In this document: positions 3,106 to 6,927 of the stretch, in pieces
Position numbering within the stretch: position 1 is the first letter of the stretch
Layout: each line of letters begins with the position of its first letter
NCBI GenBank assembly: GCA_037925075.1
Contig: JAXSNR010000002.1
Location: forward strand, 480,001-544,000
Direction: 5' to 3'
DNA from: Aquificaceae bacterium
GTDB lineage: Bacteria > Aquificota > Aquificia > Aquificales > Aquificaceae
Length of the DNA: 64,000 nt
Notes under the pieces: generated by a model
Seen by the model: only the letters and a program-made list of their open reading frames with translations
The model's database searches: none
What the model was told of the DNA's origin: nothing
Translations under genes and position numbers: made by a program

Positions 3106-4509
3106 TCACCTCAGCCTGAGCACAAGGAAAAGGTTGTTGCCCCTTCTTCTTATGAGTAGAAGAGCGCTTTCTCTGCCTGCCTGTCTGAGGGCATCTATGT
3201 TCTGTTGGAATTCCCTTACGTTTGAAACGGGTCTGTTGCCCACCTGAAGTATAACATCTCCTGAAATTATACCGCTCTGCATGGCAAGGCTGTTGGGATT
3301 AACCCTTACCACAAGAACCCCCTTAGTGCCGAGCCTCCTCTCTTCCTCTGGAGTGAGGTCCCTGAGAACAAGCCCAAGTTCCGCCTCACCAAGCTCTTCC
3401 CCGGCTGTGGGCATCTCTTCCGGCATTTCTCCTACCTTTATTCTTAGGCTTATCTCCTTGCCTTCCCTTATTACCTTTAGGTTTATCTCCTTACCCGGCT
3501 CTGTCCTCATTATTTTGAATTGAAGCTCCCTTACCTCGCTCACCCTTTGACCGTCTACCTCAACCACCACGTCCCCGACTCTGAGACCACCCTTGTCCGC
3601 AGGGCTTCCGGGCATTATCTGGGCTATTATTACACCCTCCGCTATTCCAAGGCTTTCCGCCATATCTGGTGTTATATCCTGTATAACTACACCAAGCCAG
3701 CCCCTTGTGACCTTGCCTTTGGCTATCAGTTGGTCTGCGACCCATTTGGCTAGGTTTATGGGTATGGCAAAGCCAAGCCCCTGTCCTTCTGCCAGTATGG
3801 CGGTGTTTATACCTATCACCTCGCCCCTTATGTTCACAAGGGGTCCTCCAGAGTTTCCCGGGTTTATAGCGGCGTCTGTTTGGATAAAGCTCTCATACTG
3901 AGTTATGCCTATTGCCCTCCTCAAGGCGGATATTACACCCACCGTTACAGTCCTTTCAAGCCCGTATGGGTTTCCGATGGCTATAACCAACTGACCCACC
4001 TTTAGCTTATCTGAATCGCCGAGCTTTGCTACCCTACCCTCTGGGTTCTGAATGTCTTTGTCGTCAACTTCTATTACCGCCACGTCCGTTTTTGGGTCTG
4101 TGCCTACTATTTTTGCTCTCTTTTCTTTATGCCTGTCAAACCTAACCCTTATGGCTCTTGCGTTCTGCACCACGTGGCTGTTGGTTAGTATGTAAAACTT
4201 GCCCTTTTTGTAGTCTATTATCACGCCAGAGCCCAAAGACCTCCTTTCTTGGGGTGGAATCTGGAAGGGAAAGGGAAATTCAAGGTTGGTAGCCTCTTGA
4301 GTGGCAAATATGGTTACCACGGAGGGTGAGACCGCTTCCACTATGGCGGTTAGTTCCTGTTCAAACTGAGAAAGCACTTGAGAGGAAACCACCGGTTTAT
4401 CCTGTGGAGGAGGTGTGTTTGCCTTTTGAAGGGTCTGTGCCTTACAACCAAGAAGAAATAAAAGACTTATGAAAAAGGCACTAAGCAGAGCCATCTTTTT
4501 CCTCCTCAT
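3106..4509 (-). CDS. htrA: HtrA/DegP periplasmic serine protease with two PDZ domains
   Basis: LTNSHVV, IQTDAAINPGNSGGPL, lipoprotein-like signal (LLGC), two PDZ domains. Confidence 0.95.
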   Translation of the reverse strand: MRRKKMALLSAFFISLLFLLGCKAQTLQKANTPPPQDKPVVSSQVLSQFEQELTAIVEAVSPSVVTIFATQEATNLEFPFPFQIPPQERRSLGSGVIIDYKKGKFYILTNSHVVQNARAIRVRFDRHKEKRAKIVGTDPKTDVAVIEVDDKDIQNPEGRVAKLGDSDKLKVGQLVIAIGNPYGLERTVTVGVISALRRAIGITQYESFIQTDAAINPGNSGGPLVNIRGEVIGINTAILAEGQGLGFAIPINLAKWVADQLIAKGKVTRGWLGVVIQDITPDMAESLGIAEGVIIAQIMPGSPADKGGLRVGDVVVEVDGQRVSEVRELQFKIMRTEPGKEINLKVIREGKEISLRIKVGEMPEEMPTAGEELGEAELGLVLRDLTPEEERRLGTKGVLVVRVNPNSLAMQSGIISGDVILQVGNRPVSNVREFQQNIDALRQAGRESALLLIRRRGNNLFLVLRLR

Positions 4510-5162
4510 TCTCTAACCTCACAGGAAAAGAATAAAACTCTGAAGAGGGCCTTGTCAATTTTGTATATCATACTTTCAATCCCCTTCTTTGAGATTATAC
4601 CACCCTTGGAGAGTGGATTAAAGGAGGAACCCGTATAGTGGAAAAACCTCACCAAGTCCCACCCACTAAAGGGTATGGGAAGGTCCTCAAGAAAAAACGC
4701 CCTTATTTTGGCCCTTTCTTTGAGAAGACTGAGGACATCTTCCACTTTTGGAAAGGGAAAGCCAAACTCTGGCAGGCTTCCTCTCACTGGCATGGCACAG
4801 AGAAAAAGCCCTCTACAAACCCTGATGGTTTCTGGTATGCTTTTGCTCAGGTCAGTCCAGTGAAGGGCAAAATTGCTTATCACGCAGTCAAAGCTCTTAT
4901 CTTTAAAAGGTAAGGCTTGGGCATCCCCGAGTACAGCCACGCCAAACCTCTCTTTGTAAACCCTTGCCATACCCATGGCTATATCTACGCCAACCACCTT
5001 TTCAAGACCTTCACTGAGAAACCCTGTGCCGCATCCAAGGTCAAGGACACGCCCCTCTATCCTTTCAAGGGCTCTGAGTTTTTGTGCGGAGTGCCTCTGA
5101 GGGGTTGCCCACTCTTCGTAGCTACCGCAGGCTCTTGAGAACCTCAAAGATAAGACTTTCAT
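4506..5162 (-). CDS. bioC: Malonyl-ACP O-methyltransferase BioC-like SAM methyltransferase
   Basis: FSRA..SYEEWA.PQ N-terminus, VLDLGCGTG, SNFALHW; adjacent to bioH-like gene. Confidence 0.82.
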   Translation of the reverse strand: MKVLSLRFSRACGSYEEWATPQRHSAQKLRALERIEGRVLDLGCGTGFLSEGLEKVVGVDIAMGMARVYKERFGVAVLGDAQALPFKDKSFDCVISNFALHWTDLSKSIPETIRVCRGLFLCAMPVRGSLPEFGFPFPKVEDVLSLLKERAKIRAFFLEDLPIPFSGWDLVRFFHYTGSSFNPLSKGGIISKKGIESMIYKIDKALFRVLFFSCEVRE

Positions 5163-5868
5163 CCTCTGGAAAGTGTCCTCCTGGGAAGGTTATTAATTTA
5201 GACCTTCTTAGCATGTTGTAAAGGGTAAGGGCGGAAGAGAAGGGGGTTATGGGGTCATAAAGACCGTGAAGGATATAAACCCTTTGCCTTATGTGTGGCA
5301 GTATGGGTCTTATGTCAAGCTCCATGTAGTCTTTGAGAAGTCTCTTTGCTCCTTCTACGTGGATGCTGTCTTCAAAAGCCTTTGGATAGGCAAGGCTTCT
5401 AAACTCTTTGAGAAAAGCTTCTCCTTCCCTTTCAAGCCTTAGCAAAAAACTCCTTAGGTTTTTTCTGCTCCATATACAGCCAAAGCAGGCACTGGTTCCT
5501 ATAAGCAAGGATGCCCTAACCTTTTCTGGGTACAGGTAGGCTATCAGGAGTGCCAAGCTTGCACCCAAAGACCAGCCAATAAGGATAGAAGATTTGGGAA
5601 TTTTTAAGGCTATAGTTTTTGCAAGATTGTGAAGCCCTTCATAAGTTAAGGTGCTTTTTCCATGAAAGGGAAGGTCAAAGGAGGGAACGCCTTTTAGGAC
5701 TTTTGAGCTAAAGCCCCATCCATGAAGAAAGAAAAGCGGGTCCGGAGGGACTCGAACCCCCGACCTAGGGATTAGAAATCCCTTGCTCTGTCCAGCTGAG
5801 CTACGGACCCTCGGGGTGGCAGGACTTGAACCTGCGACCTTTGGCTCCCAAAGCCAACGCTCTCCCAC
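5122..5868 (-). CDS. bioH: BioH-like alpha/beta hydrolase (pimeloyl-ACP methyl ester esterase); start uncertain because the frame overlaps two tRNAs
   Basis: FLHGWG, GWSLG nucleophile elbow, HGLYDPI and GGHFP triad residues; recognisable domain starts about 5736. Confidence 0.75.
   Translation of the reverse strand: MGERWLWEPKVAGSSPATPRVRSSAGQSKGFLIPRSGVRVPPDPLFFLHGWGFSSKVLKGVPSFDLPFHGKSTLTYEGLHNLAKTIALKIPKSSILIGWSLGASLALLIAYLYPEKVRASLLIGTSACFGCIWSRKNLRSFLLRLEREGEAFLKEFRSLAYPKAFEDSIHVEGAKRLLKDYMELDIRPILPHIRQRVYILHGLYDPITPFSSALTLYNMLRRSKLITFPGGHFPEDESLIFEVLKSLR
5737..5810 (-). tRNA. tRNA-Arg(TCT), CCA not encoded
   Basis: GGGTCCG/CGGACCC acceptor stem, AGGGA-TTTCTAA-TCCCT anticodon arm, GTTCGA T-loop. 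Confidence 0.96.
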
Positions 5869-5883
5869 CTGAGCTACACCCCG
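5811..5883 (-). tRNA. tRNA-Pro(TGG), CCA not encoded
   Basis: CGGGGTG/CACCCCG acceptor stem, TTGGC-TTTGGGA-GCCAA anticodon arm, GTTCAA T-loop. Confidence 0.96.
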
Positions 5884-5901
5884 TAGATATAAAATTATAC
5901 C

Positions 5902-6927
<1,026 letters not shown>

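What the first reader, a model, noticed from the sequence alone, without database searches (positions are those of the whole stretch)
5122..5883. bioH reading frame has no start codon outside the tRNA genes: possible protein start encoded inside tRNA-Pro/tRNA-Arg
Seen: the BioH N-terminal strand (LFFLHGWG) starts at the first nucleotide after the tRNA-Arg discriminator (5737). The frame is stop-free through both tRNAs. The only in-frame ATG/GTG/TTG upstream of the catalytic GWSLG serine is the GTG at 5868-5866 in the tRNA-Pro D-loop. It lies 8 nt after an SD-like GGGGTG (5882-5877) formed by the tRNA 5' end. The catalytic triad and the downstream bioC look intact. Inference: either the unprocessed tRNA precursor doubles as mRNA, so tRNA folding/processing competes with biotin-gene translation, or a non-canonical codon is used (e.g. 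ATC in the anticodon arm, or CTT at 5736 left leaderless after 3' processing). A recent deletion of the true start is also possible.
Basis: partly seen in the sequence, partly recalled or inferred. Interest (0 to 1): 0.8.

Follow-up and report, generated by a model that had tools for sequence, protein, structure and literature searches.

The report
Enzyme gene starts inside tRNA genes
In five genera of hot-spring bacteria a biotin-pathway esterase gene has no start codon of its own and begins on the base after two essential tRNA genes, and these tRNAs avoid a common variant that would put a stop codon in the enzyme's frame, so the ribosome likely starts inside the first tRNA and reads through both.

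Summary
Confirmed, and conserved. The BioH-like core begins on the base after tRNA-Arg(TCT), which abuts tRNA-Pro(TGG). The junction occurs in 39 of 84 family genomes examined (5 genera). The gene has an intact triad in all 39 and median dN/dS 0.19, so this is neither a private deletion nor an assembly error.

Key test: U at Arg D-loop position 20a would make an in-frame TAG. All 39 fused genomes have C, with no change on the tree. The same site in the other three Arg tRNAs of these genomes changes 5, 5 and 6 times, and 18 of 29 unfused genomes carry the TAG. This points to translation through the Arg D-loop. The only canonical start upstream of it is the GTG in the tRNA-Pro D-loop, behind an SD formed by the tRNA 5' end. 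Junction lengths keep the frame (36 of 39); the other three carry a slippage-prone T9 run.

Not shown: no RNA or proteomic data. The GTG is ancestral, so not diagnostic. Closest precedent: selC nested in selB (Mukai 2021, bioinformatic); there the tRNA lies at the C-terminus.

The parts
5902..6921 (-). gap (type I GAPDH), upstream neighbour; stop TGA 5904-5902 is in the bioH frame here but not in most relatives
   Evidence: TIGR01534 over cut-off
5894..5899 (-). TATAAT -10 box, predicted promoter of the tRNA-Pro/tRNA-Arg/bioH/bioC transcript (start about 2-4 nt before tRNA-Pro, inferred)
   Evidence: sequence; a TATAAT- or TAAAAT-like box about 10-12 nt upstream in most fused genomes, weak in genus g12 (read by eye)
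5811..5883 (-). tRNA-Pro(TGG), the only one ARAGORN finds in the genome; also codons 1-19 of the predicted protein
5877..5882 (-). SD-like GGGGTG = 5' strand of the tRNA-Pro acceptor stem; duplex -8.9 kcal/mol with an anti-SD; predicted open only until the acceptor stem closes
5866..5868 (-). GTG in the tRNA-Pro D-loop, proposed start codon (invariant in 38 of 38 fused copies that cover it, but also in 94 of 95 Pro TGG/CGG matches of unfused genomes)
5737..5810 (-). tRNA-Arg(TCT), the only one ARAGORN finds in the genome, zero spacer on both sides; read in frame as RVRSSAGQSKGFLIPRSGVRVPPDP (first base from tRNA-Pro)
5788..5790 (-). CAG codon at Arg D-loop position 20a; T here would be an in-frame TAG; C in 39 of 39 fused genomes
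5770..5772 (-). ATC in the anticodon arm (rival non-AUG start; public annotations such as P0013, P0025 begin at this residue)
5749..5761 (-). GGGGGT (T-stem) plus GTC 5751-5749 (T-loop; ATC in 3 of 39): rival non-AUG start with a strong but hairpin-buried SD
5728..5759 (-). terminator-like hairpin plus U-rich tail at the tRNA-Arg/bioH junction (weak: such sites are at chance level in the region)
5122..5736 (-). BioH-like alpha/beta hydrolase core, 204 aa; HG oxyanion motif, Ser 5571-5569, Asp 5256-5254, His 5175-5173
4506..5162 (-). bioC-like methyltransferase, ATG overlapping the bioH 3' end by 41 nt
   Evidence: TIGR02072 best hit, below cut-off

Best explanation
The bioH-like gene has no start codon outside the tRNAs and is likely translated from the GTG in the tRNA-Pro D-loop, on precursor transcripts caught before they fold, with the ribosome reading through both tRNA sequences. 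Shown by sequence and comparison: the zero-spacer junction, the open frame, purifying selection on the enzyme including its first strand, and avoidance of the one frequently sampled stop-creating tRNA variant. Inferred: a promoter just before tRNA-Pro makes one transcript tRNA-Pro/tRNA-Arg/bioH/bioC. While RNA polymerase is still inside tRNA-Pro, the acceptor 5' strand (GGGGUG) is unpaired and serves as SD, so a ribosome occasionally loads on the D-loop GUG. That molecule becomes mRNA and gives a 248-aa protein with a predicted disordered 44-residue N-terminal tail. All other molecules fold and are cut by the protein-only RNase P and 3' nucleases, giving two tRNAs and a start-less 3' fragment. 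Each transcript would be tRNA or mRNA, not both, which would fix BioH (and coupled BioC) at a low level tied to tRNA transcription. The GTG and SD are pre-existing tRNA features that were exapted when a deletion joined the tRNA 3' end to the first strand of an ancestrally leaderless bioH. In three genomes one T is missing at the junction; slippage or a -1 shift on a T9 run would restore the frame.
For: (1) Junction in 39 of 84 family genomes examined, 5 genera; 44 of 44 informative unfused genomes have their own ATG/GTG/TTG (read by eye). (2) H, G, S, D, H invariant in 39 of 39; median dN/dS 0.19 over 215 pairs with 0.1<dS<1.5, as in unfused genera (0.14-0.28); the HG-W/F-G codons vary mostly synonymously, so the first strand is translated; AF2 puts strand 1 at the first codon after the tRNA, residues 1-30 pLDDT<50. 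(3) Arg(TCT) 20a is C in 39 of 39 with 0 changes; Arg ACG/CCG/CCT in the same genomes change 5/5/6 times (T in 15 of 33, 28 of 35, 18 of 35); unfused TCT has T in 18 of 29, 8 changes; two-state model P(all C) = 7e-6 with pooled controls, 0.013 with the most conservative one. The pair is not frozen: 67 other changes, none a stop. (4) G088 and G071 keep the zero-spacer Pro-Arg tandem without bioH and have the TAG; G088 sits inside fused genus g15 on RpoB (support 0.999) and monophyly of the fused genomes is rejected (AU p=0.002), so it is a secondary loss. (5) Discriminator-to-His distance is 12 nt (33), 9 nt (3) or 11 nt (3); T9 in 3 of 3 of the last against 1 of 36 others; G000 has only 6 A/T runs of 9; dN/dS among those three 0.11-0.20. 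(6) In-frame stops lie 0-7 codons before tRNA-Pro in 36 of 37 genomes with flank, and GTG is the only canonical start between there and position 20a. (7) SD predicted about 70% unpaired at 70 C in 38-58 nt nascent RNA, 3% once tRNA-Pro is complete.
Against: No transcript, ribosome-profiling or peptide evidence. The GTG and SD are ancestral (94 of 95 unfused Pro matches), so they carry no signal of selection. SD spacing is long (10 nt from the GGAGG-equivalent; 40 of 327 genome ORFs have 10 or more, mode 6). The stop-avoidance test rests on one site, chosen after seeing the data; Arg position 16 is also invariant in fused genomes although not stop-related, and the ACG control alone gives only p=0.013; the tree is from bioH+bioC with weak deep nodes. 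The three T9 genomes break the frame, and the rescue is assumed; in two of them a TTG stands directly before His. Loss in genus g10 is preferred but not significant (AU p=0.09, 2000 replicates), and 2 of its 6 TCT copies have C. At 37 C parameters the nascent GTG is predicted paired. BioW is present in 77 of 90 genomes, so the role in biotin synthesis is not forced.
Confidence: 0.72

Rival explanations
1. Non-AUG initiation inside tRNA-Arg: at ATC 5772 (anticodon arm, SD AAGGG) or at GTC/ATC 5751 (T-loop, SD GGGGGT), giving a 13- or 5-residue extension.
For: SD duplex -5.4 and -9.8 kcal/mol; a start at 5751 gives M-P-P-D-P-L-F-F-L-H, close in length to outgroup N-termini such as MLKNPLFIH; some public annotations begin at the ATC residue; the strong 5' SD would not need to outrun tRNA-Pro folding.
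Against: Both lie downstream of position 20a and do not explain its fixation; both codons are general tRNA features also found in unfused genomes; the T-stem SD is inside a GC-rich hairpin; ATC/GTC starts are very weak in E. coli (recalled).
Confidence: 0.13
2. Ribosomes enter from the upstream gene (gap) on read-through transcripts, by stop read-through or by re-initiation at the same GTG.
For: The gap stop is in the bioH frame in G000 and several g1 genomes, and an in-frame TGA directly precedes tRNA-Pro in g12; no terminator-like site between gap and tRNA-Pro. Re-initiation would still explain the 20a signal.
Against: Upstream frame and stop position differ between genomes, TAA/TAG also occur, some have two stops; a -10 box sits just before tRNA-Pro in most. 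Read-through cannot be general; re-initiation may only add to the main route.
Confidence: 0.07
3. 3' processing of tRNA-Arg releases a leaderless mRNA that starts at the first codon (tRNA punctuation as in mitochondria).
For: The genome looks rich in leaderless genes (TANNWT peak 6-8 nt before ATG); many of its tRNAs are followed within about 5-12 nt by an ATG; unfused bioH genes often look leaderless.
Against: First codon is CTT, CTC, TTT, TAT or TAC, none near AUG; out of frame in three genomes; no RNase Z over cut-off in G000; does not explain position 20a.
Confidence: 0.04
4. The gene is a pseudogene, a private deletion or an assembly error.
For: No own start; BioW offers another pimelate route.
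Against: 39 genomes, 5 genera, no internal stop, triad intact, dN/dS 0.19.
Confidence: 0.02

Closest known systems
selC (tRNA-Sec) nested in the selB ORF of Alphaproteobacteria (Mukai 2021, PMC8124441; abstract and passages read)
   Same: Whole tRNA in sense inside a bacterial ORF; frame conserved; some lineages lost the overlap; proposed either/or between tRNA processing and translation; bioinformatic only.
   Different: There the ribosome starts normally and the tRNA encodes a C-terminal tail. Here the SD and start codon themselves lie in the tRNA, two tandem housekeeping tRNAs are read, the protein is unrelated to the tRNAs, and there is a within-genome controlled signal of stop avoidance.
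tRNA genes inside or overlapping protein genes in animal mitochondria, e.g. tRNA-Lys in cox1 of Armadillidium (as cited in PMC8124441; original not read); tRNA punctuation (recalled)
   Same: Zero-spacer tRNA-tRNA-ORF layout; processing and translation compete for one transcript.
   Different: Organelle, not a free-living bacterium; punctuated mRNAs keep their own start codon.
Pentapeptide ORF in E. coli 23S rRNA (Tenson 1996, as cited in PMC11841355, passages)
   Same: A stable RNA carries a translatable ORF; folding hides the initiation site (the latter recalled).
   Different: Five residues, contained in the RNA; here the RNA supplies the start of a full enzyme.
BioH, pimeloyl-ACP methyl ester esterase (PDB 4etw, 1m33, 4nmw, 6k5e)
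   Same: Top four sequence-profile hits (E 4e-22 to 7e-21) and top fold hits (4etw TM 0.75); Ser-Asp-His triad; adjacent to bioC.
   Different: 55 bits against the TIGR01738 cut-off of 207; 22% identity; about 50 aa shorter core; activity untested.
Frame restoration by transcriptional slippage, Shigella mxiE (run of Us) and Thermus dnaX (nine As) (PMC1088944, passages)
   Same: A 9-base homopolymer at a frame break, as in G005, G007, G020.
   Different: Slippage here is assumed, not measured.

Membership tests
tRNA nested in a bacterial ORF (selB-selC type) | complete tRNA gene in sense within a stop-free frame continuous with a protein gene | tested here: met
   tRNA-Arg entirely, tRNA-Pro from nt 16; 36 of 39 genomes in frame
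tRNA nested in a bacterial ORF (selB-selC type) | ORF has an ordinary start upstream; tRNA encodes a C-terminal extension | tested here: not met
   in-frame stops 0-7 codons before tRNA-Pro in 36 of 37; tRNAs are N-terminal
tRNA nested in a bacterial ORF (selB-selC type) | tRNA sequence actually translated | not testable with these tools
   only indirect: stop avoidance at 20a
tRNA punctuation with leaderless mRNA | start codon at or just after the tRNA 3' cut | tested here: not met
   first codon CTT/CTC/TTT/TAT/TAC in the 39
tRNA punctuation with leaderless mRNA | RNase Z-type 3' endonuclease | tested here: inconclusive
   two weak matches (39 and 32 bits) against cut-off 293 in G000; HARP and RNase E/G present
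BioH (TIGR01738) | score above the curated cut-off | tested here: not met
   55.4 against 206.95 bits, though best NCBIfam hit
BioH (TIGR01738) | alpha/beta hydrolase fold with Ser-Asp-His triad and HG oxyanion motif | tested here: met
BioH (TIGR01738) | linked to bioC | tested here: met
   overlapping bioC-like gene; found downstream in 36 of 39 fused loci by a motif search, 3 not picked up
BioH (TIGR01738) | hydrolyses pimeloyl-ACP methyl ester / complements E. coli bioH | not testable with these tools
   no assay
functional tRNA genes | cloverleaf, correct anticodon, sole copy of the isoacceptor, compensatory stem changes | tested here: met
   single Pro(TGG) and Arg(TCT) among the tRNAs ARAGORN lists for G000; Arg 4:70 pair flips together 9-10 times

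The most novel reading that the evidence does not exclude
Two essential housekeeping tRNA genes serve as the ribosome-binding site, start codon and first 44 codons of a metabolic enzyme. A kinetic race between ribosome loading and cloverleaf folding decides whether each transcript becomes tRNA or mRNA, and the coding role has constrained tRNA evolution across five genera. One lineage stacks homopolymer slippage on top of it.
Probability: 0.7. Interest if true: 0.85.

Novelty: new variant of a known kind. Interest (0 to 1): 0.75.

Why it matters
It would be a case of translation initiating inside a bacterial tRNA gene, which my searches did not find in print (open-access library only); the one bacterial precedent read has the tRNA at a C-terminus. 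It makes the competition between co-transcriptional tRNA folding and ribosome loading testable with single-base changes (C5790T, GTG-to-GCG). It shows a way to hold a trace-level enzyme low using a strong tRNA promoter. It also explains inconsistent public annotation of this protein (starts at GTG, ATC, or after the first strand; lengths 184-252 aa) and warns that pipelines forbidding tRNA/CDS overlap truncate such genes. Stop-codon avoidance in labile D-loop positions is a general screen for translated tRNA genes.

Tried and rejected
RNA evidence: no RNA holder listed; the one added run gave only foreign tRNA/gap contigs; uninformative. GTG conservation as evidence: rejected, ancestral. Searches found nothing because my pattern was one base too long; 43 was redone, the fused-genome Pro(CGG) control (44) was not redone. 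gap-bioH read-through fusion as the general mechanism: rejected, frames differ. Out-of-frame ATG at the His codon plus frameshift: rejected, His codon is CAC in 13 of 39. Attenuator model (hairpin plus U tract, relieved by translation): kept only as a possibility; 9 terminator-like sites against 7.9 expected and no U tract in G014, G018. Leaderless start at the transcription start: no start codon in frame there. Other start-less tRNA-abutting genes in G000: none among the tRNAs listed or the 12 long ORFs without an early start (read by eye). Second BioH-like esterase in G000: only one weak match, E 5e-4. IQ-TREE on RpoB timed out; FastTree plus AU test used. Lechner 2014 (PMC4227106) and PMC12439589: passages read by term search, nothing on this locus seen; their supplements were not opened.

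Full report
Observation. On the minus strand tRNA-Pro(TGG) 5883-5811 and tRNA-Arg(TCT) 5810-5737 abut with no spacer, and the codons LFFLHGWG start at 5736. The frame is open from 5901 to 5122. GTG 5868 is the only ATG/GTG/TTG before the catalytic serine; the next is the TTG right after it. Both tRNAs are the only ones of their anticodon that ARAGORN lists in the genome.

The protein. The 204-aa core is an alpha/beta hydrolase. Its best NCBIfam hit is bioH, far below cut-off; the best solved relatives by profile and by fold (4etw, TM 0.75) are BioH. A bioC-like gene overlaps its end. AlphaFold2 gives pLDDT over 90 for 200 residues, strand 1 at the first codon after the tRNA, and low confidence for the tRNA-encoded residues. 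Homologues named by public sources are Aquificaceae. I call it BioH-like; BioW is also present in 77 of 90 genomes, so the role is likely, not proven.

Conservation. 85 of 90 family genomes have a homologue. I examined upstream DNA in 84 (G061, a fragment, was left out). 39 genomes in five genera (g1 24, g15 10 of 11, g12 2, g13 2, g16 1) have the tRNA pair joined to the core; 45 do not, and the 44 of these with upstream DNA show their own ATG/GTG/TTG within about 11 codons, often just behind a -10-like box or overlapping the previous stop (read by eye). Six outgroup loci also have their own start. The fused genes have no internal stops, H-G-S-D-H in 39 of 39 and median dN/dS 0.19, like unfused genera. 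The His-Gly codons of the first strand vary only synonymously, so the product includes that strand and initiation lies at or before it. A metagenome scan gave 21 more junctions, 19 of 12 nt and 2 of 9 nt, all in frame, C at 20a in 18 of 18 where the site could be read; these overlap the same species.

Where translation starts. In-frame stops lie 0-7 codons before tRNA-Pro in 36 of 37 genomes with flank, so the start is inside the tRNAs or at the junction. The first codon after the discriminator is CTT, CTC, TTT, TAT or TAC, which excludes a conserved start there. The decisive site is Arg D-loop position 20a (5790). Most unfused copies read GGA-T-AG, a TAG in the bioH frame. All 39 fused copies read CAG. 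As a control I read the same position in the other three Arg tRNAs of the fused genomes: T in 15 of 33, 28 of 35 and 18 of 35, with 5, 5 and 6 changes on a bioH+bioC tree, against 0 for TCT. Unfused TCT has T in 18 of 29 genomes on the tree, 8 changes (g11, G065 and genomes without a bioH sequence left out). A two-state model gives P(all C) 7e-6 with pooled controls, 0.013 with the ACG control alone, 0.002 within genus g1. The pair is otherwise free to change: 67 changes at 21 positions, including 11 at Pro 20, 10 at Arg 4 and 3 at Arg 17, none making a stop. Against this: it is a single site picked after inspection, and Arg 16 is also invariant without a stop-related reason. Because 20a lies upstream of ATC 5772, GTC 5751 and CTT 5736, only a start in tRNA-Pro or the first 20 nt of tRNA-Arg explains it, and GTG 5868 is the only canonical codon there.

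Natural experiments. G088 and G071 keep the zero-spacer Pro-Arg tandem but have bioH elsewhere, and both have the TAG, so C is not demanded by the tandem. On an RpoB tree of 29 genomes G088 is nested in fused genus g15 and monophyly of the fused genomes is rejected (AU p=0.002), so at least one secondary loss occurred; loss in g10 is the best tree but not significant (p=0.09; 2000 replicates). Junction length is 12 nt in 33 genomes and 9 nt in 3, both in frame. It is 11 nt in G005, G007 and G020, a derived clade, all with a T9 run against 1 of 36 others, in a genome type where such runs are scarce (6 in G000). One added U, or a -1 shift, would give LFFLHG again, and these genes stay under selection (dN/dS 0.11-0.20). 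Nine-base runs are known slippage sites (PMC1088944, passages). This fits, but it is also the main exception and could hide another start.

The initiation site. The SD is the acceptor 5' strand (-8.9 kcal/mol against an anti-SD motif), 10 nt from the GTG counted from the GGAGG-equivalent, in the tail of the genome's distribution (40 of 327 at 10 or more; GTG starts 28 of 327). Folding at 70 C predicts the SD about 70% open in 38-58 nt nascent RNA and 3% open once tRNA-Pro is complete; at 37 C the nascent GTG is predicted paired. The GTG is in 94 of 95 Pro(TGG/CGG) matches of unfused genomes, so it was exapted. The genome has protein-only RNase P and RNase E/G but no RNase Z over cut-off.

Mechanism. 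Shown: anatomy, conservation, selection on the enzyme, stop avoidance in the tRNA. Inferred: one transcript from the TATAAT at 5899-5894; occasional co-transcriptional ribosome loading at GUG 5868; read-through of both tRNAs; a 248-aa product with a disordered tail; either/or with tRNA maturation; low fixed output of BioH and coupled BioC. I put this at 0.72, a non-AUG start in tRNA-Arg at 0.13, entry from gap at 0.07, leaderless after processing at 0.04 and pseudogene at 0.02.

Comparison and novelty. Mukai 2021 (PMC8124441; abstract and passages) predicted tRNA-Sec nested in the 3' end of selB, called it the first such report in bacteria, and proposed the same either/or logic. I was led to it by scan note e1-9550076. 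So a tRNA inside a bacterial ORF is a known kind. What differs is that SD and start codon lie in the tRNA, two housekeeping tRNAs are read, and selection on the tRNA for an open frame is measurable. Searches (listings only) found no paper on this locus or on initiation inside a bacterial tRNA; subscription literature is not covered. This scan has noted the same locus on another genome (e1-5269334) and similar layouts in other taxa (e1-8284327, e1-9550076, e1-2559403); these are unchecked AI notes. My reading was recorded before I saw them.

Verdict. Real, conserved, probably translated through two tRNAs; new variant of a known kind; interest 0.75.

Noticed in passing
G000 genome-wide, e.g. window 34781-34698 tRNA-Leu(CAA): Many tRNA genes are followed within about 5-12 nt by the ATG of a long ORF with no obvious SD or -10 box (Leu CAA/CAG/GAG, Arg CCT, Asn, Glu), suggesting routine tRNA-mRNA co-transcription with short-leader mRNAs released by processing.
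   Followed up: no
G000 genome-wide: TANNWT peaks 6-8 nt before the first ATG in ORFs lacking GGAGG, pointing to many leaderless genes; unfused bioH genes often look leaderless too.
   Followed up: partly
G000: No RNase Z over the TIGR02651 cut-off although most tRNA genes lack an encoded CCA; the 3' maturation route is open.
   Followed up: partly
L091, L092, L094, L095, L102 (genus g10): tRNA-Arg(TCT) sits 1-4 nt behind what looks like the SRP RNA gene (recognised from a recalled motif, untested), and is followed by CT/CTT, the same letters that begin the fused bioH, a possible scar of the rearrangement.
   Followed up: no
L041-L045, L047-L049: Unfused bioH genes inside the fused clade take their start (TTG, GTG or ATG) from the last codons of the upstream gene, in three different contexts.
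   Followed up: partly
L046, L063, L064 versus L069-L078: In the 9-nt junctions the tRNA's terminal CCG aligns with the conserved Pro of outgroup N-termini (N-P-L-F-I-H-G), suggesting the fusion arose at a short microhomology.
   Followed up: no
window 4558-4529 (-): TTGACA-18-TATTCT promoter-like site inside the bioC 3' end, in front of a degP/htrA-like gene (4509-3106), followed by a sigma-factor-like gene (3101-2169) and a truB-like gene (2169-1306); these three named by eye from translations.
   Followed up: no
G004:C6:24-612: A second, stop-riddled copy of the bioH-like gene at a contig end.
   Followed up: no
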